A stretch of 64,000 nucleotides of DNA from Escherichia phage Barry, in sequence record LR880803; one strand, written 5' to 3'. The notes below the pieces were generated by a model that saw nothing but the letters and a program-made list of their open reading frames with translations, did not search any database and was not told the DNA's origin. Positions 5,603-63,462 of the stretch are shown here, piece by piece. A program made the position numbers and the translations under genes. Numbering within the stretch: the first letter of the stretch is position 1; each line of letters begins with the position of its first letter.

Positions 5603-6337
5603 ATGAAAGAGATGACAGAACAAGGTAAGGAGATTTTTAATCTCTTAAAAACTGGTAAAGGGTTCTCTAACCCGCTTATTACTGGTGCAGCAGTTCTCGG
5701 TGGAACCGTAGCTGCTTCTACATCACTTGTAAGCTCTATTAGTTCTGTAACAGACCCTACAATGAAGGAGAAACTTGTTGCTGCTGGACTTACAACAGTC
5801 CTTCTAAACAGCTTTACAACAAGCCTTACAAGCACTACAGCAACTACTAAAACTCTGACAGACTACGGTCAAAAATCTATTGATGAGTTTTCATCACGTA
5901 TGCAGGTAGCAAAGGGGTATTCCAATGTTATGGGTGCAGCAGGAGAACAAGTTGGTTGTACACCATTCAGTGGTATCATGGGTGTTGCTACAGAGTATGG
6001 TCAAAAAGCTATTGACATGATGAACAGTACACTAGATAGTGTTAATGGTGTGTTAAGTGACTTACAAGATGCTATTGATAAGGGTCTTGATACTGTTTCT
6101 GATTTAGCTAACCAAGCTGTCAGTAAGATTAATGAAGGTATTTCAAAGATTACAGCTTATGCAGATGAAGTTGTGCAGATGATTGAAGAAGAAGCTGCCC
6201 TTATTGCAGAGTACCTTAAAACGAATATCAATGGGTTCTTAGCAGGTATCTTACCAGACTGGTTTGACGATGCTTGTAAAACTGGTGTGATTGACACTAT
6301 TGCAACACCAGAAATGAAGAGCGCATTACAGAAATAA
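5603..6337 (+). CDS. hypothetical protein (Thr/Ser-rich N-terminal half, alpha-helical C-terminal half)
   Basis: ATG at 5603 with SD aaaggtg; the track start at 5540 overlaps tRNA-Phe and is rejected. Confidence 0.5.
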   Translation: MKEMTEQGKEIFNLLKTGKGFSNPLITGAAVLGGTVAASTSLVSSISSVTDPTMKEKLVAAGLTTVLLNSFTTSLTSTTATTKTLTDYGQKSIDEFSSRMQVAKGYSNVMGAAGEQVGCTPFSGIMGVATEYGQKAIDMMNSTLDSVNGVLSDLQDAIDKGLDTVSDLANQAVSKINEGISKITAYADEVVQMIEEEAALIAEYLKTNINGFLAGILPDWFDDACKTGVIDTIATPEMKSALQK

Positions 6338-6338
6338 T

Positions 6339-6431
6339 GGAAGATTAACCCTAAAAGGTAAGGGAGCAGTTTGCTAAACTGCCAGTAGCTGAGAAATCGG
6401 TGTACCAGTTCAAGTCTGGTATCTTCCTCCA
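6339..6431 (+). tRNA. tRNA-Ser (anticodon GCT), long variable arm
   Basis: 93 nt; perfect acceptor ggaagat/atcttcc, perfect anticodon stem gcagt/actgc with loop ttGCTaa, long variable arm, T-arm ACCAGTTCAAGTCTGGT, CCA encoded. Confidence 0.75.
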
Positions 6432-6435
6432 ATTT

Positions 6436-6511
6436 GAATCCGTGACAGAAATGGATATGTGCCTGTCTGCAAAACAGGTTTATAAGGGTTCGAGTCCCTT
6501 CGGATTCTCCA
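6436..6511 (+). tRNA. tRNA-Cys (anticodon GCA)
   Basis: Perfect acceptor gaatccg/cggattc, perfect anticodon stem cctgt/acagg with loop ctGCAaa, T-arm AAGGGTTCGAGTCCCTT, CCA encoded. Confidence 0.75.
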
Positions 6512-54904: not shown

Positions 54905-57049
54905 ATGAACAAAGTACAGATTATTAAAAAGAATGGCTCACTTGAAGAACCCGATATCAAAAAAGTTTTAGCAGCAGTAACTAAGTCAGCTAACAGGGTT
55001 GGATATAAAGAACTTCCACCAGATGTTACCCAAGCTCTTGAGTCAGCATTTATGAGGATTCTGGTAAAGTCCACTAAGCAGAATAATTTGCTCATCTCGG
55101 TAAATGATATTCACAGTATTGTTGAGGGTGCTTTGGCAGAAGTCAATCACGAGATTTATGAGTCTTACTCAACATATAGAAATTACCGTAAAGAGGTTGC
55201 TCAAAATTGGGACGAGCTTTACCAAAAGACTAGGGATACACTCTTCTTAGGTGACCGTGAAAATGCTAACTTTGACAGTAGTTTAATTTCTACAAAAGGC
55301 TCAATTATTCGTGGTTACTTGACTAAAGAAATCTTTAAACAGTACCATTTAACACCAGAGGAACTTGAAGCCATTGAAAAAGGGTTTATCTACATCCATG
55401 ACTTAAGAGACCTAATTTTTGGTGGTATCAACTGTTGCCTGTTTGACATCGGCAAAGTACTGAAAGGTGGCTTTGAAATGTCTGGTATCGAATACTGTGA
55501 ACCAAAGTCTGTGCTGTCAGCCTTACAGGTTATTGGTGATGTAGTTCTTTCAGCAACTGCACAGCAATTTGGTGGCTTTACTTTAGCAGAGATTGATAAG
55601 GTACTTGTGCCGTATGCTAAAAAATCTTTAGTGTACCACTCAGAGAAAGCTGAAGAGTACGGAATCCCTAAAGAGCAACACTATAATTACGTAATGGAGC
55701 AATTACAGAATGAGTTAACACAAGGTTTCCAATCTCTTGAAATGAAACTCAACACTGTTCCTTGCAGTCGCGGTGATTTTGCATTTACTACTCTGACATT
55801 TGGCCTGTTGGAACCAGATATGCACAATGAAGATAACCGTCTTCAGTTTATGATTGCTAATACAATCCTTAATGTAAGGATGAACGGGCAAGGGAAAAGC
55901 AAAAAACCTGTTGTTTTTCCTAAACTTGTGTATATCTATGAAGAGACAAGACATAAACTTGATGTATGCCAAGCAAGGTTGTTTGAAAAAGCTATTGAGT
56001 GTTGCTCTAAAGCGATGTATCCAGATTTCTTAAGTGTATCTGGTCATGGTGCTGTAGCAGATGCTTTTGAGCGTTCTGGTAAGGTGATTTCACCGATGGG
56101 TTGCAGAGCTTTCTTGTCTCCATATCTTAATGATAACGGAGAGGAGTTCTATGTAGGTCGTGCTAACATCGGTGCTGTTTCTTTGAACTTACCAATGATT
56201 TACCAGTATTCTAAAGAGAATGGTTTAGATTTCTGGAAAGAGCTTGATAAGTACCTAGAAATGATTCGTAGTTTCCACAAGAAACGCTATGAAATGATTG
56301 CCAATATGCCAGCAAGTTCTAACCCTCTTGCATTTACACAAGGTGGTCTGTACAAAGGAACTAAGAAGCCTACTGACAGGGTTGGTTGGGATATTGTGAA
56401 GTCCTTCACAGCTTCTTTTGGGGTTACTGCGCTTGATGAGCTATCTGTTCTTGCTGAAGGTAAACGACTTCATGAAGTTGGAAGCTATAGTTTTGCATAT
56501 GATGTTCTGGCATACATCAACATGAAAACTGAAGAGTTTAAGAACGAAGATGGCTTCTTGTATGCGGTATATGGCACTCCAGCAGAATCACTTTGTGGAA
56601 CTCAGTTAAAACAGTTCAGAGATATGTTTGGCGTTATTAAAGGTGTCTCTGACAAGGAATACTTTACAAACAGTTTCCATATGAATGTTGCAGCAGACAT
56701 CTCACCATTTGAGAAGCAGGACTTAGAAGAGCCATTCTTCCATATCTGTAGAGGTGGTAGAATCCAGTATGTAAGAGTAGCTAACCCAGAAAACTTAACA
56801 GCACTTAAAAGTTGTATTACCAGAGGGATGTTGAAGGGTTTTTATCAGGGACTTAACTTTGACTTAGCAATCTGTGAACATTGTGGTAACAGACCAAAGG
56901 CTGATGTTGAAGAATGTGAGGTTTGTCATTCACACGATATCTCTGTGATTAACAGGGTGTGCGGGTACTTGTCATTCACAAAAATTAAAGGTCAGTCTCG
57001 AATGAATGACGCTAAGATGGCAGAAATTAAGGATAGGGTTTCTATGTAG
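54905..57049 (+). CDS. nrdD: anaerobic ribonucleoside-triphosphate reductase (class III, NrdD)
   Basis: 714 aa with N-terminal ATP-cone-like region, C-terminal glycyl-radical motif NRVCGYL, and CxxC zinc-site motifs (CEHCGN, CEVCHS). Confidence 0.8.
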   Translation: MNKVQIIKKNGSLEEPDIKKVLAAVTKSANRVGYKELPPDVTQALESAFMRILVKSTKQNNLLISVNDIHSIVEGALAEVNHEIYESYSTYRNYRKEVAQNWDELYQKTRDTLFLGDRENANFDSSLISTKGSIIRGYLTKEIFKQYHLTPEELEAIEKGFIYIHDLRDLIFGGINCCLFDIGKVLKGGFEMSGIEYCEPKSVLSALQVIGDVVLSATAQQFGGFTLAEIDKVLVPYAKKSLVYHSEKAEEYGIPKEQHYNYVMEQLQNELTQGFQSLEMKLNTVPCSRGDFAFTTLTFGLLEPDMHNEDNRLQFMIANTILNVRMNGQGKSKKPVVFPKLVYIYEETRHKLDVCQARLFEKAIECCSKAMYPDFLSVSGHGAVADAFERSGKVISPMGCRAFLSPYLNDNGEEFYVGRANIGAVSLNLPMIYQYSKENGLDFWKELDKYLEMIRSFHKKRYEMIANMPASSNPLAFTQGGLYKGTKKPTDRVGWDIVKSFTASFGVTALDELSVLAEGKRLHEVGSYSFAYDVLAYINMKTEEFKNEDGFLYAVYGTPAESLCGTQLKQFRDMFGVIKGVSDKEYFTNSFHMNVAADISPFEKQDLEEPFFHICRGGRIQYVRVANPENLTALKSCITRGMLKGFYQGLNFDLAICEHCGNRPKADVEECEVCHSHDISVINRVCGYLSFTKIKGQSRMNDAKMAEIKDRVSM

Positions 57050-57056
57050 CATACAA

Positions 57057-57614
57057 ATGAATTACGAACTAATATATAATGCAATTATTAAGAAGGCACA
57101 TTCTGAAAGGGGTGTGCCTCTTACATACTACAAATGTCAAGGTAAGGGTTATGAAAGACACCATATCATACCAGTATGTCTAGGTGGCGATAAAATTAGT
57201 GGAGATAATATTGCTTTACTTACACCTAGAGAGCATTATATAGCTCATAAACTACTGGTTAAGATGTATCCAAACAATCATAAGTTATGGTTTGCATGGA
57301 ACAGGCTAGCTCATGATGGCCTAGATAGGAAAATATCATCCAGAGACTATGAAAAGGTAAGGGCTTTGAACTCGAAAGCTCTATCTATTGTGAATAAAGG
57401 TAGGGTTTTCACTGAAGAACATCGAAGACGATTAGGAGAATCTCAAATAGGCAATACAAAGTCAAAAGGTTGTAAGAGGTCTATAGAAACAAGGAAGAAG
57501 ATGTCAGAAGCCGGAAAAAAGCCAAAGAAAAAGAAAACTTGCCCTCATTGTGGCATGACTGGTGGTGCTGGTAACATGACTCGATATCATTTTGACAATT
57601 GTAAGAAAAAATAA
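57057..57614 (+). CDS. HNH homing endonuclease between nrdD and nrdG
   Basis: HNH motif YERHHIIPVCLGGDKISGDNIALLTPREHYIAH; C-terminal CPHC zinc-finger-like motif. Confidence 0.6.
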   Translation: MNYELIYNAIIKKAHSERGVPLTYYKCQGKGYERHHIIPVCLGGDKISGDNIALLTPREHYIAHKLLVKMYPNNHKLWFAWNRLAHDGLDRKISSRDYEKVRALNSKALSIVNKGRVFTEEHRRRLGESQIGNTKSKGCKRSIETRKKMSEAGKKPKKKKTCPHCGMTGGAGNMTRYHFDNCKKK

Positions 57615-59867: not shown

Positions 59868-59881
59868 ACAGATACTATAAG

Positions 59882-59910
59882 GGGACTGTAAAGGTTCCCT
59901 TTTTATTTTG
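59882..59910 (+). terminator. rho-independent terminator
   Basis: Hairpin ggga-ctgtaaaggt-tccc followed by TTTTTATTTT. Confidence 0.45.
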
Positions 59911-59918
59911 GAGGTAAA

Positions 59919-60434
59919 ATGTATCTGTCAAACCTGAAACGTTCGGTTGCAATGTCAGTTCTAAGACTCAGCTTTGATGAGCGTCAAGAGTTTATAGACT
60001 CCCACAAATATGACCCTTCAAATTCTAATCACATGGTTCTTTGGAATCGTGATAACTTCCGTGAAAGAGCACTTGTCCGTTATTACCCACACTACACAAT
60101 AGATAACCTGTATGAATGGTGTGTTGTGAAGAACACCATTGCAACACTGAACAATCTTTGCAGGTATACTGGTAAGCAAACATTTACATTAGGTCATCAC
60201 AAACCTGTTACAAAAGGTGGTGAACATCACTGTGCAAACTGGTTTATCCAAACTAAAGCTGATAACCAGAAGCAAGGAGATAGCCTCCTAAGTATCCCTA
60301 AGATGACCTATGAAGAGCAAGAGAAATATATCAAAAATAATATGCCAGATGTGCTTGACAACAACTATACAGATTTGGCAATATCTCTCCTGTTGAAGTT
60401 CGAGACAGTTTATAGGGCAACTTATAATGACTAA
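59919..60434 (+). CDS. putative HNH-family endonuclease
   Basis: Motif LGHHKPVTKGGEHHCANWFIQTKADNQKQG resembles an HNH core; low confidence. Confidence 0.35.
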   Translation: MYLSNLKRSVAMSVLRLSFDERQEFIDSHKYDPSNSNHMVLWNRDNFRERALVRYYPHYTIDNLYEWCVVKNTIATLNNLCRYTGKQTFTLGHHKPVTKGGEHHCANWFIQTKADNQKQGDSLLSIPKMTYEEQEKYIKNNMPDVLDNNYTDLAISLLLKFETVYRATYND

Positions 60435-60705
60435 AGAAAAGTGGGAGATTTTACCATTAGTCAGTGAAGGAGGTAATGGTTGTGAAATGTACATGATACG
60501 TGGTCATGTTCCAGAGCCAATTGCACTTGAGATGGTAAACAACTTTACAGATGGTTCTTACAAAGACTTAGGCGAACCAACTGTCAAGCAACAATGGGTT
60601 AAACCTGTACCAGACAGCACAGGTAACTGTAGTGTACTTTATCACGTTGTAGACCCTGCAAAATGCAAATCTGCAATGGCAGTAACAAACGTAACTTTTG
60701 ATTGA
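60427..60705 (+). CDS. hypothetical protein
   Basis: 92-aa ORF. Confidence 0.35.
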   Translation: MTKEKWEILPLVSEGGNGCEMYMIRGHVPEPIALEMVNNFTDGSYKDLGEPTVKQQWVKPVPDSTGNCSVLYHVVDPAKCKSAMAVTNVTFD

Positions 60706-60716
60706 GAGAGAAAACT

Positions 60717-61598
60717 ATGAAAACATCTATCCGTGTTACAGTTCATTCACCAACTAAAGGGACTCATGAAGAAGAGTTTAACATCGTCCAATTCCCTTCT
60801 GGTGAGATTGGTGGACACTTTTCGCCAGAGTTTGTTGATTTTACTGCTTATGCAGCATCATCCATCAACAATGTGATTATGATTGTAAAAGGTTATGACA
60901 AGGACACATTGTTTGCTGTGGCACTTGCTAAAGAAGCAATTGATGATTTAATTCCTCATGATTATGCTTTAAAGACTGTCATCTTTTACTACTTACCAAA
61001 TGCACGATATGACCGTCACATGTTTAAAGGTGACGCAGCAGCTTTAAAGGTTTTTGCTAAACAGATTAATGCAATGGGATTTGGCGCAGTCTGTGCAGTT
61101 GACCCTCACAGCTATGTACCAGATAACCTGTTTAACTGCTTCCAGAGTATTCCTCAAAAGGAGATTGCAGTCCACTATGCAAATGACCCACTGGTTGATT
61201 ACTTAGTAGCCCCAGATGCAGGTGCTGCTAAGAAGGTTGCAGAGACCGCTAAAGAGGTGGATAAACCATATATCACAATGTCTAAGGTGCGTAACCTTAA
61301 GACTGGTGAAATTACTGGTATGCGAATCCTTGATGATGTTGATTTGACAGATAAAACCGTCATGATTCTGGATGATATCTGTGATGGTGGTCGAACCTTC
61401 ATAGAAGCAGCTAAGCATCTTCGTGAAGCAGGTGCAAAACGTGTGGAACTCTATGTAACACATGGTATCTTCTCTAAAGATGTTGAAAACCTTCTTGACA
61501 ATGGCATTGACCACATCTACACTACAAACTCTTTAGGGGAAGCTAAAGACCGTGGCTTAACACATTATGGTCAAGTTACTGTAGCAAACCTTGATTGA
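60717..61598 (+). CDS. prs: ribose-phosphate pyrophosphokinase family protein (Prs-like; possible ADP-ribose pyrophosphokinase)
   Basis: PRPP-synthetase motifs: ribose-5-P loop VMILDDICDGGRT, GAKRVELYVTHGIFS, VDPHS; ATG at 60717 with SD gagagag. Confidence 0.7.
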   Translation: MKTSIRVTVHSPTKGTHEEEFNIVQFPSGEIGGHFSPEFVDFTAYAASSINNVIMIVKGYDKDTLFAVALAKEAIDDLIPHDYALKTVIFYYLPNARYDRHMFKGDAAALKVFAKQINAMGFGAVCAVDPHSYVPDNLFNCFQSIPQKEIAVHYANDPLVDYLVAPDAGAAKKVAETAKEVDKPYITMSKVRNLKTGEITGMRILDDVDLTDKTVMILDDICDGGRTFIEAAKHLREAGAKRVELYVTHGIFSKDVENLLDNGIDHIYTTNSLGEAKDRGLTHYGQVTVANLD

Positions 61599-61606
61599 AA
61601 CTTTAT

Positions 61607-61629
61607 AGGGGCTTAAAAGCCCCATTTTG
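61607..61629 (+). terminator. rho-independent terminator-like hairpin
   Basis: ggggcttaaaagcccc followed by ATTTTG. Confidence 0.4.
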
Positions 61630-61643
61630 AGAGAGATTAAAAG

Positions 61644-63425
61644 ATGACTAAATCACTTTATGCAGTACCAGCAGGTTTAAATGCAGATGCTTACAAATCT
61701 GGTCATGTTTACCAGTATCCTAGTGCAACAGAATACTTGATGTTCAACCTGACACCACGTAGTGATAAATGGTTTAACAGCCCTTTAGCAATTGACGGTG
61801 TAGTGGCTTTTGGTATTCAACGTTTCGTTAAAGATTACCTGATAGACCACTGGAACGCCACTTTCTTTGAACGTGATAAAAAAGAAGCAGTTGACGAAAT
61901 CTTAGAAGTCATGAATGGTGTTCTGGGTAAAGATGCTATCGGTCGAGAGCATTGGGAAGCACTTCACGATTTAGGCTATCTACCAGTTGAAGTATACGCT
62001 GTAGAAGAAGGTACAGTTGTTCCTATGCGTGTTCCAATGATTGTCTTCCAGAACACTGTTTCAGGTTTCCATTGGGTAGCAGGTTATCTGGAAGATGCTT
62101 TCTCTGCTGAGATTTGGAAGACTTGCACCATTGCAACTATTGCATTGCACTACAAACGTATCTGTAAGAAGTGGGCTGACCTTACTTGCGACAATGACTT
62201 ACATTTACCTTATCAGTGCCATGACTTTGCTATGCGTGGTATGTCCGGCTTTACCGATGACGCATTTAATGCTGTAGGTCACTTAACCAGCTTTAAAGGA
62301 ACTGATAGCTTCCCTGCTGTATACACGGCTAAACGCATCTATGGACAGTCTTACCCAATTTCTGATATTGGTAGTTCTGTACCAGCCACTGAACACTCTG
62401 TAATGTGTGCAAACATTGCTTGGGAAGGTGGTAATGAATTGATTGAAGAGGAAAGACGCTTTAAAGGTGAGTTGCAAACCTTCCGTCGTTTCTTAACAGA
62501 AACTTACCCAACTGGTATTGCAAGTATTGTTTCAGATACTTATAACTTCTGGAGAACTGTGTCAGAAATCTTACCAGCACTTCGTAAAGAAATTATGGAA
62601 CGTGATGGTAAGCTGGTAATTCGCCCTGACTCTGGAGACCCTGTACATATTGTCACAGGCTATAAAGCAATCCACTTAGAGTGTGCTAAGAAGGCTTATT
62701 ATGAGCACCTAAGCAAGCTGGAAGCTAGTGACACAATGTTGAATGCTGTTCTGAACATGAAGCTTGAAAACATCAACTATGGTATTGCTGGATGGCTACT
62801 GTCAGAAGGCTACGAAATGGTTGTTGACAGAGAAGACTTTGAAGTTGCTGATACAGTGATGTTGAAAAATGCTTATATGGTTGGCTCTGCAAACGTTGTA
62901 ACACGTCCTGTAGCAGAGATTGATGGAGCTATTAAGACCCTGTACAACATCTTCGGAGGGACTATTAACTCTAAAGGGTTTAAGGTACTGGATGAGCACA
63001 TCGGCCTTATCTATGGTGACTCTATCACGCTGGAACGTGCAAACGAAATCCTGAAGCGTCTGTATGAAATGGGTTTTGCAAGCTCTAACGTAGTGTTTGG
63101 TGTAGGCTCTTACACTTACCAGTACATGACTCGTGACACCTTTGCATTTGCTGTCAAAGCAACTCTTGCAAGCATTGGTGGTAAAGAGATTATGCTTGCA
63201 AAAGACCCTAAAACAGATAGTGGTGTTAAGAAATCTGCCTTTGGTGGTGTAGCACCTATGTGGGATGGTGATAAGCTGAAAGCTGTAGATGGCTATGGAT
63301 TCCAGAGTTTTGCAGATGTACTTGACCACCAAGCTTGTGCTTTACGTTTAGTCTTTAGCGACTCTGAGCAGTTCGGTTATACAACTCTTGGAGATATTCG
63401 AAATAATATTGACAAGCAGCTTTAA
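61644..63425 (+). CDS. nadV: nicotinamide phosphoribosyltransferase family protein (NadV/NAMPT-like)
   Basis: 593-aa ORF with NAMPT-like architecture directly downstream of the Prs-like gene. Confidence 0.6.
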   Translation: MTKSLYAVPAGLNADAYKSGHVYQYPSATEYLMFNLTPRSDKWFNSPLAIDGVVAFGIQRFVKDYLIDHWNATFFERDKKEAVDEILEVMNGVLGKDAIGREHWEALHDLGYLPVEVYAVEEGTVVPMRVPMIVFQNTVSGFHWVAGYLEDAFSAEIWKTCTIATIALHYKRICKKWADLTCDNDLHLPYQCHDFAMRGMSGFTDDAFNAVGHLTSFKGTDSFPAVYTAKRIYGQSYPISDIGSSVPATEHSVMCANIAWEGGNELIEEERRFKGELQTFRRFLTETYPTGIASIVSDTYNFWRTVSEILPALRKEIMERDGKLVIRPDSGDPVHIVTGYKAIHLECAKKAYYEHLSKLEASDTMLNAVLNMKLENINYGIAGWLLSEGYEMVVDREDFEVADTVMLKNAYMVGSANVVTRPVAEIDGAIKTLYNIFGGTINSKGFKVLDEHIGLIYGDSITLERANEILKRLYEMGFASSNVVFGVGSYTYQYMTRDTFAFAVKATLASIGGKEIMLAKDPKTDSGVKKSAFGGVAPMWDGDKLKAVDGYGFQSFADVLDHQACALRLVFSDSEQFGYTTLGDIRNNIDKQL

Positions 63426-63438
63426 AAGTATATGATAA

Positions 63439-63462
63439 GAGGCTCCTACGGGAGCCTTTTTA
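63439..63462 (+). terminator. rho-independent terminator
   Basis: Hairpin aggctcc-tacg-ggagcct followed by TTTTT. Confidence 0.6.

What the first reader, a model, noticed from the sequence alone, without database searches (positions are those of the whole stretch)
60717..63425. Adjacent Prs-like and NAMPT-like genes: candidate NAD+ reconstitution counter-defence module
A ribose-phosphate pyrophosphokinase family gene (classic PRPP-binding loop DDICDGGRT) sits immediately upstream of a NadV/NAMPT family gene, in an otherwise nucleotide-metabolism late-early block. This pairing matches the recently described phage NARP1 arrangement (ADP-ribose pyrophosphokinase plus nicotinamide ADPR transferase), which rebuilds NAD+ after depletion by host NADase-based immunity. 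The alternative is a conventional PRPP to NMN salvage pair; sequence alone cannot separate the two.
Basis: partly seen in the sequence, partly recalled or inferred. Interest (0 to 1): 0.7.

Follow-up and report, generated by a model that had tools for sequence, protein, structure and literature searches.

The report
Known phage NAD+ rebuilding operon (NARP1)
These two adjacent genes are the already-characterised phage NARP1 pair (Adps + Namat), which rebuilds NAD+ from the fragments left by bacterial NAD+-destroying immune systems; the window comes from the same phage genus (Felixounavirus) in which the pathway was discovered, so the call is correct but not new.

Summary
An Adps gene (60717-61598, 293 aa) and a Namat gene (61644-63425, 593 aa) sit side by side on the + strand of a Felixounavirus (wV8/FelixO1-like) genome, downstream of the NrdAB/NrdDG genes.

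NARP1 was discovered by deleting exactly this operon (genes 79-80) in Felixounavirus Bas63. The window Namat is 99% identical to Bas63 gp80. The window Adps is 78% identical to gp79 and 100% identical to wV8 gp135, which is already listed in the discovery paper's table.

Independent tests agree:
- Namat has the published adenine "selectivity clamp" (GSYTYQYMTRD; SCL Lys42-Trp43).
- 16 of the 20 NAD+-contact residues of the crystallised SPβL1 Namat are identical.
- The closest fold match is the Namat crystal structure.
- Adps scores like validated Adps and far below true Prs on curated Prs models.
- No NMN adenylyltransferase, Macro-domain (Adpp) or RyR-domain (RyDEP) partner is present.

Minor points not described in the papers I read: an ordered ~88-residue insertion subdomain in the Ounavirinae Namat, a swapped Adps N-terminal allele, and an intergenic hairpin that a homing endonuclease replaces in relatives.

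Novelty: already known. Interest: low.

The parts
60717..61598 (+). adps: ADP-ribose pyrophosphokinase (ADPR-PP synthetase), 293 aa, Prs-family fold
   Evidence: ORF. 100% identical to wV8 gp135 and 78% to Bas63 gp79. Scores 230 bits on an HMM of 15 Namat-linked Adps, against 130 for E. coli Prs. Fails all NCBIfam Prs equivalog cut-offs.
61284..61286 (+). Adps Lys190, equivalent to the catalytic Lys162 of SPβL1 Adps (K162A is inactive)
   Evidence: Alignment A1, numbering check, mutant described.
61371..61397 (+). Adps ribose-phosphate-binding loop DDICDGGRT (residues 219-227)
   Evidence: Translation. D219, D220, G225 and T227 are invariant across window, Bas63, SPβL1 Adps and E. coli Prs.
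61608..61623 (+). adps-namat intergenic GC-rich hairpin (GGGGC-TTAAAA-GCCCC, followed by ATTTTG)
   Evidence: RNA fold -14 kcal/mol, z = -3.55. Conserved in Bas63. Replaced by an HNH homing endonuclease gene in phage radambza.
61644..63425 (+). namat: nicotinamide ADP-ribose transferase, 593 aa, Nampt-family fold
   Evidence: ORF. 99% identical to Bas63 gp80 and 100% to phage Andreotti. 47% identical to crystallised SPβL1 Namat. AF2 model pLDDT 93.6, with best Foldseek hits 9W5X/9W5W Namat at TM 0.95.
61752..61796 (+). Namat selectivity-clamp loop (SCL), TPRSDKWFNSPLAID, with Lys42-Trp43 at loop positions 3-4
   Evidence: Alignment to SPβL1 R40. The rule 'Lys/Tyr at position 3, the next residue stacks, e.g. 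Bas63' comes from PMC12774641.
62394..62396 (+). Namat catalytic histidine His251 (ATEHS motif)
   Evidence: Motif position. Invariant in 60 homologues. Role as described in PMC12774641.
62661..62924 (+). Ounavirinae-specific insertion subdomain of Namat (residues ~340-427), absent from SPβL1 Namat and Nampt
   Evidence: Alignment gaps. Predicted as an ordered α/β unit with pLDDT 93-97. Homologous in phiEa21-4. Spacing is 124 aa against 52 aa in the ~495-aa forms.
63105..63137 (+). Namat selectivity-clamp helix (SCH) signature GSYTYQYMTRD (residues 488-498)
   Evidence: Matches the published consensus GS-X-Φ-X-Φ-X-Φ-TRD with aromatics at positions 3 and 7. Present in all 120 closest homologues. 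Absent in Xcc Nampt (GGALLQKVDRD) and HdNadV (GAQTYQRNTRD).
63437..63460 (+). Intrinsic-terminator-like hairpin closing the operon
   Evidence: 10-bp stem, 5 GC pairs, T-rich tail. phiEa21-4 has an annotated terminator at the same position after nadV.
59879..59901 (+). Terminator-like hairpin that bounds the transcription unit upstream
   Evidence: Conserved in Bas63.
59919..60705 (+). Two small upstream ORFs in the same terminator-bounded unit (171 aa, phrog_3500; 92 aa, phrog_4726). They are co-transcribed neighbours and were not shown to belong to the pathway.
   Evidence: ORFs overlap or abut adps. No Macro or RyR domain. The 171-aa family sits beside a helicase in Stephanstirmvirinae. The 92-aa family is confined to Ounavirinae.

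Best explanation
This is a NARP1 operon (NAD+ reconstitution pathway 1). When a host NADase-based defence (SIR2-HerA/Nezha, type I Thoeris, DSR1/DSR2, SEFIR and similar systems) cleaves NAD+ into ADP-ribose and nicotinamide, Adps transfers pyrophosphate from ATP to the ribose C1'' of ADP-ribose and makes ADPR-pyrophosphate. Namat then displaces the pyrophosphate with nicotinamide and regenerates NAD+ directly. Namat keeps the Nampt catalytic core (His251, Arg327, Asp221, Phe195, Tyr17'). Its adenine clamp (Tyr490 and Tyr494 on the SCH, Lys42-Trp43 on the SCL) selects the AMP-bearing donor over PRPP. The two genes are co-transcribed between terminator-like hairpins. Shown here: the gene pair, orthology to the genetically validated Bas63 operon, conservation of every tested signature and catalytic residue, and absence of NARP2, Adpp and RyDEP partners. 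Inferred by homology, not tested for this particular allele combination: the two enzymatic reactions and the counter-defence phenotype.
For: (1) Orthology to the founding case. Bas63 (JohannRWettstein, MZ501086.1) is a Felixounavirus. Deleting its genes 79-80 cost ~20-fold plating on SIR2-HerA cells and lowered NAD+, and ADPR-PP appeared only with wild-type phage plus the defence system. The window Namat is 586/593 identical to gp80 and the Adps 228/293 identical to gp79, both without gaps and in the same gene order and flanks.
(2) The window Adps is 100% identical to wV8 gp135, which appears in Osterman Table S1 with 'Namat within 10 genes: Yes'. The wV8, Bas63 and FelixO1 Namats are labelled 'Adps-associated' in Table S2.
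(3) Namat signatures. The SCH motif is GSYTYQYMTRD and the SCL has K42-W43, as described for Bas63. Of 20 NAD+-contact residues of SPβL1 Namat, 16 are identical and 4 differ conservatively. PDB sequence ranking is Namat 433 bits, above Xcc Nampt at 180 and human NAMPT at 140. The Foldseek top hit is Namat at TM 0.95.
(4) Adps versus Prs. Scores on the NCBIfam model PRK01259 are 92 bits for the window, 74 for SPβL1 Adps (which has no activity on ribose-5-phosphate), 101 for Bas63 gp79 and 533 for E. coli Prs, with a cut-off of 297. On an HMM built from Namat-linked Adps the window scores 230 bits and E. coli Prs 130. The catalytic Lys is conserved.
(5) No NMN adenylyltransferase is detectable in the window and none is annotated in Bas63. 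Bas63 still overcame the defence in a ΔpncC ΔnadR host.
Against: No enzyme from any Felixounavirus has been assayed in vitro. The Bas63 protein did not purify, so the biochemistry was done on the SPβL1 homologues, which are 36% (Adps) and 47% (Namat) identical to the window proteins. The window's Adps carries the wV8-type N-terminal allele, which is only 57-67% identical to the genetically tested Bas63 allele over codons 1-90 and 121-150 and 83% over codons 91-120. This exact allele therefore has only bioinformatic support. Namat retains measurable PRPP-to-NMN activity in vitro, so some conventional salvage flux cannot be excluded. My Adps tree has a single canonical Prs as outgroup.
Confidence: 0.9

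Rival explanations
1. A conventional salvage pair. The first enzyme is a true PRPP synthetase and the second a true Nampt/NadV that makes NMN from PRPP and nicotinamide, and the host NadR or PncC route finishes NAD+.
For: Pfam, NCBIfam and GenBank records name the genes this way. Namat passes the NadV-type model PRK09198 with 470 bits against a cut-off of 405. [quoted passage not shown]
Against: Bas63 with the orthologous operon still defeated SIR2-HerA in a ΔpncC ΔnadR host. SPβL1 Adps gave no product from ribose-5-phosphate. The window Adps fails all Prs equivalog cut-offs by 190-480 bits. Namat has the adenine clamp, which is absent from Xcc Nampt and HdNadV. No phage Nmnat is present.
Confidence: 0.04
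2. The NARP1 chemistry is the same, but its main role is housekeeping. It recycles ADP-ribose and nicotinamide produced during normal infection to sustain nucleotide metabolism, which would fit the position beside the ribonucleotide reductase genes, and it does not mainly serve to counter immunity.
For: The operon lies in the Nrd block. It is conserved in essentially all Felixounavirus records whatever the host. Chromosomal enterobacterial homologues carrying the Namat motif exist, and bacterial NARP1 modules are active.
Against: In Bas63, ADPR-PP appeared only when a defence system was present, and wild-type phage produced no excess NAD+ in cells without a system. The deletion phenotype was seen on defence-carrying cells.
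Confidence: 0.04
3. The divergent wV8-type Adps N-terminal half changes substrate range or regulation relative to the tested Bas63 allele, for example by accepting a modified ADPR or escaping a host inhibitor.
For: There is a sharply bounded allele cassette. Codons 1-90 are 57-64% identical at the nucleotide level while the flanks are 94-97% identical. Both alleles are common among Felixounaviruses.
Against: The catalytic and loop residues are unchanged and the C-terminal half is 97-100% identical over codons 181-270. Nothing indicates a different substrate, and mosaicism of this kind is routine in phages that carry homing endonucleases.
Confidence: 0.02

Closest known systems
NARP1 of Escherichia phage Bas63 / JohannRWettstein (genes 79-80; Osterman et al., bioRxiv 10.1101/2024.02.11.579819)
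   Same: Same genus and same locus between the NrdG block and rIIA. Same gene order, gene lengths (293 and 593 aa), intergenic hairpin and terminator. Namat is 99% identical and the Adps C-terminal half is 97-100% identical over codons 181-270.
   Different: The Adps N-terminal half is a different allele (wV8-type), about 57-67% identical in most of the first 150 codons. Namat differs at 7 residues, none of them in a ligand-contact or clamp position.
NARP1 of Bacillus phage SPβL1 (Adps gp190, Namat gp191; biochemistry in Osterman et al.; structures 9W5W/9W5X in PMC12774641)
   Same: Same two-gene order. Same catalytic Lys in Adps. Same Namat catalytic core and SCH signature. Fold TM 0.95.
   Different: Only 36% (Adps) and 47% (Namat) identical. 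The window Namat has a 4-residue-longer SCL that uses Lys-Trp in place of Arg40, an extra ~88-residue subdomain (340-427) and a 15-residue insertion (258-278). The SPβL1 genes overlap, whereas here a 45-nt spacer with a hairpin separates them.
NARP2 of Vibrio phage KVP40 (Nampt + bifunctional Nmnat)
   Same: The second enzyme belongs to the same Nampt superfamily, and the pathway has the same overall purpose of restoring NAD+ during infection.
   Different: NARP2 starts from PRPP and needs an Nmnat. Here no Nmnat homologue is found, a Prs-family partner is adjacent, and the Namat adenine clamp is present. The discovery paper found no phage with both pathways.
Extended NARP1 operons: NARP1-AP (Macro-domain ADPR-1''-phosphatase Adpp; 10.64898/2026.01.28.702374) and RyDEP-containing NARP1 (10.64898/2026.05.28.727677)
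   Same: The core Adps + Namat pair.
   Different: No Macro-domain or RyR-domain (PF02026) protein lies in or beside this operon. This phage should therefore be unable to use ADPR-1''-phosphate made by aRES, or cyclic ADPR signals, as input (inference).
Cellular class I PRPP synthetase (E. coli Prs) and Nampt/NadV (Xanthomonas, Haemophilus ducreyi, human)
   Same: Same folds, same ATP/ribose-phosphate loop motifs and same Nampt catalytic residues.
   Different: Adps is 29% identical to E. coli Prs, is truncated at both ends and fails the Prs equivalog models. Nampt/NadV enzymes lack aromatics at SCH positions 3 and 7.

Membership tests
NARP1 (Adps + Namat) | A Prs-family gene and a Nampt-family gene adjacent and co-oriented (Namat within 10 genes of Adps) | tested here: met
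   The genes are 45 nt apart on the + strand.
NARP1 (Adps + Namat) | Orthology to an experimentally validated NARP1 operon | tested here: met
   Against Bas63 gp79/gp80: 78% and 99% identity, full length, no gaps, syntenic.
NARP1 (Adps + Namat) | Adps falls with the phage Adps group and not with cellular Prs | tested here: met
   Adps-HMM gives 230 bits against 130 for E. coli Prs. The NJ tree places it with Bas63 and phiEa21-4 inside the Namat-linked set. NCBIfam Prs equivalogs all fail, as they do for SPβL1 Adps. The identical wV8 protein is in Osterman Table S1. Limitation: only one canonical Prs served as outgroup.
NARP1 (Adps + Namat) | Adps catalytic lysine (SPβL1 K162, B. subtilis Prs K197) present | tested here: met
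   Window K190 aligns with SPβL1 K162.
NARP1 (Adps + Namat) | Namat SCH signature GS-X-Φ-X-Φ-X-Φ-TRD with aromatics at positions 3 and 7 | tested here: met
   GSYTYQYMTRD at residues 488-498. Controls lacking it: Xcc Nampt and HdNadV.
NARP1 (Adps + Namat) | Namat SCL supplies a stacking residue (Arg at loop position 3, or Lys/Tyr followed by the stacking residue) | tested here: met
   S40-D41-K42-W43, identical to Bas63, for which the paper's AF3 model assigns the fourth residue as the stacker.
NARP1 (Adps + Namat) | Nampt-type catalytic core intact (His, Arg306, Asp215, Phe189, Tyr15') | tested here: met
   H251, R327, D221, F195 and Y17 are all conserved and invariant in 60 homologues.
NARP1 (Adps + Namat) | Adps converts ADPR + ATP to ADPR-PP and not ribose-5-phosphate to PRPP; Namat prefers ADPR-PP over PRPP | not testable with these tools
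   Needs enzyme assays. Known only for the SPβL1, DyoEdafos and P. foliorum homologues.
NARP1 (Adps + Namat) | Confers escape from NAD+-depleting defence systems | not testable with these tools
   Shown for the Bas63 orthologue against SIR2-HerA, not for this phage.
NARP2 (Nampt + Nmnat) | An NMN adenylyltransferase is encoded by the same phage | tested here: not met
   phmmer and tblastn with E. coli NadR, E. coli NadD and a phage NadR against all six frames of the window gave nothing below E = 0.3, and the positive control worked. None is annotated in Bas63. The window covers 64 kb of a ~87-kb genome.
NARP1-AP / RyDEP-extended NARP1 | A Macro-domain phosphatase (Adpp) or RyR-domain glycosidase (RyDEP) in the operon | tested here: not met
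   Pfam and PHROG scans of the six flanking ORFs found neither domain.
Canonical class I ribose-phosphate diphosphokinase (Prs) | Reaches the curated NCBIfam cut-off of a Prs equivalog or PRK01259 model | tested here: not met
   The best result is 105.5 against 296 (PRK00934), and 92 against 297 (PRK01259). Only the broad TIGR01251 model is passed, at 123.6 against 113. E. coli Prs scores 533.

The most novel reading that the evidence does not exclude
The Ounavirinae Namat differs from the crystallised enzyme by an ordered ~88-residue subdomain inserted right after the RPDSGDP strand. By inference from type II phosphoribosyltransferase barrel architecture, that places it on the catalytic face. 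It could be an extra lid or a docking surface, for instance to receive the labile ADPR-PP from Adps, and would then be an unrecognised functional element of NARP1. In parallel, the two ancient Adps N-terminal alleles, exchanged around a homing-endonuclease insertion site, might reflect selection by host counter-measures and not neutral mosaicism.
Probability: 0.12. Interest if true: 0.4.

Novelty: already known. Interest (0 to 1): 0.15.

Why it matters
For annotation, these genes are labelled 'ribose-phosphate pyrophosphokinase' and 'nicotinamide/nicotinate phosphoribosyltransferase' (in one record even 'nadR') in the Felixounavirus records examined, out of 257 matching records. They should be read as Adps and Namat, a broad-spectrum counter-defence against NAD+-depleting immunity. 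That matters when choosing Felixounaviruses for phage therapy or typing on E. coli, Salmonella or Shigella strains that carry SIR2, Thoeris, DSR or SEFIR systems. Because the operon lacks Adpp and RyDEP, the phage is predicted to remain sensitive to aRES-type NAD+ cleavage. As a discovery it adds nothing to the published pathway. Only the insertion subdomain and the allele mosaic are small open points.

Tried and rejected
(1) An extended four-gene module. The 171-aa and 92-aa ORFs share the terminator-bounded unit with adps and namat. The 171-aa family sits beside a UvrD/Rep helicase, away from any NARP1, in Stephanstirmvirinae. The 92-aa family is confined to Ounavirinae, and its positional counterpart in phiEa21-4 is not homologous. 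I rejected both as pathway components.

(2) Macro (Adpp) or RyR (RyDEP) accessory genes. None is present.

(3) NARP2 or conventional salvage. No Nmnat, NadR or NadD homologue is present.

(4) Fold of the insertion on its own. The single-sequence AF2 model was poor (pLDDT 60.8), so I did not run a fold search on it. I could not read coordinates of the full model, so the position of the insertion relative to the active site is an inference.

(5) A tree with many cellular Prs. The stored copy of Osterman Table S1 is truncated before the bacterial rows. I used HMM and NCBIfam score contrasts with controls instead.

(6) Promoter scan. Hits were not above the shuffled expectation (15 found against 12.2 ± 3.2) and I did not interpret them.

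(7) My first guess at the Bas63 accession (MZ501111) was a different BASEL phage. The correct accession came from the paper's supplement.
Full report
What is there. The window is a Felixounavirus genome segment: the 2.9-kb region is 96-97% identical at the nucleotide level to wV8, HY02 and many other Felixounavirus records. Two + strand ORFs occupy the reported interval. The first is listed from a TTG at 60702. The ATG at 60717, preceded by a GAGAGAGA purine run, is the start used in the annotated orthologues and gives a 293-aa protein ending at 61598. The second runs 61644-63425 (593 aa) behind a similar GAGAGAGA run. Pfam assigns Pribosyltran/Pribosyl_synth to the first and NAPRTase/NAMPT_N to the second. 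PHROGs assign phrog_619 (E = 8e-97) and phrog_448 (E = 3e-202). Upstream lie NrdA, NrdB, NrdD, a NUMOD3 homing-endonuclease ORF and NrdG. The observation and its genomic context are therefore confirmed.

Which of the two readings is right. The literature held in the tool library settles most of this. Osterman et al. (bioRxiv 10.1101/2024.02.11.579819) discovered NARP1 by noticing exactly this Prs-like/Nampt-like operon in four BASEL phages and deleting it (genes 79-80) from Bas63, also called JohannRWettstein. The mutant plated ~20-fold worse on SIR2-HerA cells and NAD+ fell further. ADPR-pyrophosphate appeared only with wild-type phage plus the defence system. Wild-type phage still overcame the defence in a ΔpncC ΔnadR host, which excludes an NMN route. 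Bas63 is MZ501086.1, a Felixounavirus. The window Namat is 586/593 identical to Bas63 gp80. The window Adps is 228/293 identical to gp79 with no gaps, and the flanking genes are syntenic. The window Adps is 100% identical to wV8 gp135. That protein is listed in the paper's Supplementary Table 1 with 'Namat within 10 genes: Yes', and the wV8, FelixO1 and Bas63 Namats are labelled 'Adps-associated' in Table 2. This locus is an orthologue of the founding example.

Independent membership tests for Namat. A 2026 structural paper (PMC12774641) defines what separates Namat from Nampt. The catalytic core is conserved, and an adenine 'selectivity clamp' is added to it. The clamp consists of a helix motif GS-X-Φ-X-Φ-X-Φ-TRD with aromatics at positions 3 and 7 (the SCH) and a variable β1-β2 loop (the SCL). 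The third residue of the SCL is Arg, or it is Lys or Tyr followed by the stacking residue, as in Bas63. The window protein has GSYTYQYMTRD at residues 488-498 and S40-D41-K42-W43 in the loop. Of the 20 residues that contact NAD+ in the SPβL1 Namat crystal structure, 16 are identical. The others are R40 to K42 (with W43 following), S190 to A196, A362 to S460 and F392 to Y490. The catalytic His (H251) and the essential Arg (R327, equivalent to SPβL1 R306) are present. As negative controls, Xanthomonas Nampt has GGALLQKVDRD and Haemophilus ducreyi NadV has GAQTYQRNTRD at the same position. All 120 closest database homologues carry the Namat form. By sequence, the best solved structures are the Namat entries 9W5W/9W5X (433 bits), ahead of Xcc Nampt (180 bits) and human NAMPT (140 bits). 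A confident AlphaFold2 model (pLDDT 93.6, pTM 0.92) gives the same order by fold: Namat at TM 0.95, then HdNadV, then mammalian NAMPT.

Independent membership tests for Adps. No Adps structure or published signature exists, so I used score contrasts with controls. On the curated NCBIfam Prs model PRK01259 (cut-off 297) the scores are 92 bits for the window protein, 74 for SPβL1 Adps (shown biochemically not to use ribose-5-phosphate), 101 for Bas63 gp79 and 533 for E. coli Prs. The window protein passes only the broad TIGR01251 subfamily model. On an HMM I built from 15 diverse non-Ounavirinae Adps that each have a Namat neighbour, the window protein scores 230 bits and E. coli Prs 130 bits. 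A neighbour-joining tree places it with Bas63 and phiEa21-4 inside that set, with the caveat that only one cellular Prs was available as outgroup. The catalytic lysine (SPβL1 K162) corresponds to window K190.

Rivals. A conventional PRPP-to-NMN pair would need an NMN adenylyltransferase. Searching all six frames of the window with E. coli NadR, E. coli NadD and a phage NadR found nothing, while the Prs positive control worked. Bas63 has none annotated, and the Bas63 phenotype does not depend on host NadR or PncC. The known accessory genes of extended NARP1 operons are the Macro-domain phosphatase Adpp and the RyR-domain glycosidase RyDEP. Both are absent from the six flanking ORFs. The operon is thus the plain two-enzyme form, and by inference from those papers it should not rescue the phage from aRES-type cleavage to ADPR-1''-phosphate.

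Operon anatomy. Terminator-like hairpins at 59879-59901 and 63437-63460 bracket four tightly packed ORFs: 171 aa, 92 aa, Adps and Namat. I tested whether the two small ORFs belong to the pathway. The 171-aa family (phrog_3500) also occurs in Stephanstirmvirinae, but there it lies next to a UvrD/Rep helicase. The 92-aa family is confined to Ounavirinae, and the ORF at its position in phiEa21-4 is unrelated. Their linkage to NARP1 therefore looks like lineage synteny and not function. Between adps and namat there is a GC-rich hairpin (61608-61623; -14 kcal/mol, z = -3.55). It is conserved in Bas63 and is replaced by an HNH homing-endonuclease gene in radambza. FelixO1-like relatives show the same split match, with an HNH gene annotated in several of them.

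Points not described in the papers I read:
- Relative to SPβL1 Namat, the window enzyme has about 88 extra residues at 340-427 and 15 at 258-278. The larger insertion is predicted as an ordered α/β subdomain with pLDDT 93-97. It is homologous in the distant Ounavirinae phage phiEa21-4. It sits at a site where other phage Namats carry insertions of varying length. The word 'insertion' does not occur in the structural paper. The insertion follows the RPDSGDP strand directly, so it should emerge on the catalytic face of the barrel; that is an inference from the fold family, because I could not inspect coordinates. An insert-only model was too poor to search.
- The Adps gene is an allelic mosaic. 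Codons 1-90 are 57-64% identical to Bas63 at the nucleotide level while both flanks are 94-97% identical. The Namat is identical to that of phage Andreotti, whose Adps carries the other allele.

These two points are the only basis for a more novel reading, and I rate that reading as unlikely to change the picture.

Verdict. This is an already-known system, an orthologue of the type NARP1 operon, so interest is low. What remains inferred and not shown is the enzymology and phenotype of this exact allele combination. The assays that would settle it are listed under next steps.

Noticed in passing
window 62661-62924 (Namat residues 340-427) and 62415-62477 (residues 258-278): The Ounavirinae Namat carries an ordered ~88-residue α/β insertion subdomain (pLDDT 93-97) and a 15-residue insertion, both absent from the crystallised SPβL1 Namat and from Nampt. 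The larger one is conserved in phiEa21-4, is variable in length in other phage Namats, and is not mentioned in the structural paper.
   Followed up: partly
window 60717-61250 (Adps codons 1-~180): Sharply bounded allele cassette. It is only 57-64% identical at the nucleotide level to Bas63 over codons 1-90, while the flanks are 94-97% identical. The window combines a wV8-identical Adps with an Andreotti-identical Namat, and both Adps alleles are common among Felixounaviruses.
   Followed up: partly
window 61608-61623; L008 (radambza) 1706-2197: The adps-namat spacer holds a stable GC hairpin (z = -3.55) that is conserved in Bas63. In radambza the same spacer is occupied by an HNH homing-endonuclease gene and the hairpin is gone; FelixO1-like relatives show the same split match. 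Homing may drive the flanking mosaicism.
   Followed up: partly
window 59919-60705: Two small ORFs of unknown function (171 aa, phrog_3500, with weak HNH-like similarity; 92 aa, phrog_4726) are packed against adps inside the same terminator-bounded unit. The 171-aa family is not NARP1-linked in other phage groups, and the 92-aa family is confined to Ounavirinae.
   Followed up: yes
window 1257-6511: A cluster of 26 tRNA genes on the + strand, matching the tRNA block annotated at the end of the Bas63 genome.
   Followed up: no
window 54905-57614; L002 11631-14517: NrdD is an uninterrupted 714-aa ORF here and is followed by an overlapping 202-aa NUMOD3 homing-endonuclease ORF (57006-57614). In Bas63, nrdD is annotated as two joined pieces with a homing endonuclease inside, so the endonuclease content at this locus differs between close relatives.
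   Followed up: no
proteins P0069-P0120: ~496-aa homologues encoded on multi-megabase contigs of Klebsiella, Cronobacter, Kosakonia, Phytobacter and Erwinia are 46-48% identical to the window Namat (40% for Erwinia) and carry the Namat SCH motif (GS[FY]TYQYNTRD). They may be chromosomal or prophage NARP1 modules annotated as nicotinate phosphoribosyltransferase. I did not examine their neighbourhoods.
   Followed up: no
Shigella phage Ag3 FJ373894_00125; phrog_12872: An apparent Adps-Namat fusion. The Adps sequence runs straight into Namat at about residue 240, so the Namat N-terminal domain that supplies the SCL is missing. The 547-position PHROG profile matches both window proteins in consecutive segments. 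It could be a real fusion or a deletion derivative.
   Followed up: no
MG065668.1 'Campylobacter phage A126', GU169904.1 'Staphylococcus phage SA1': Records named for Campylobacter and Staphylococcus hosts contain this Felixounavirus operon at 93-94% nucleotide identity. This suggests mislabelled, contaminated or chimeric database entries.
   Followed up: no
L007 (Klebsiella phage KP13-26) 781-2973: This Stephanstirmvirinae phage carries nadR and pnuC (a nicotinamide riboside salvage pair), and Osterman Table S1 also lists an Adps for it. One phage therefore has two different NAD+-related modules.
   Followed up: no
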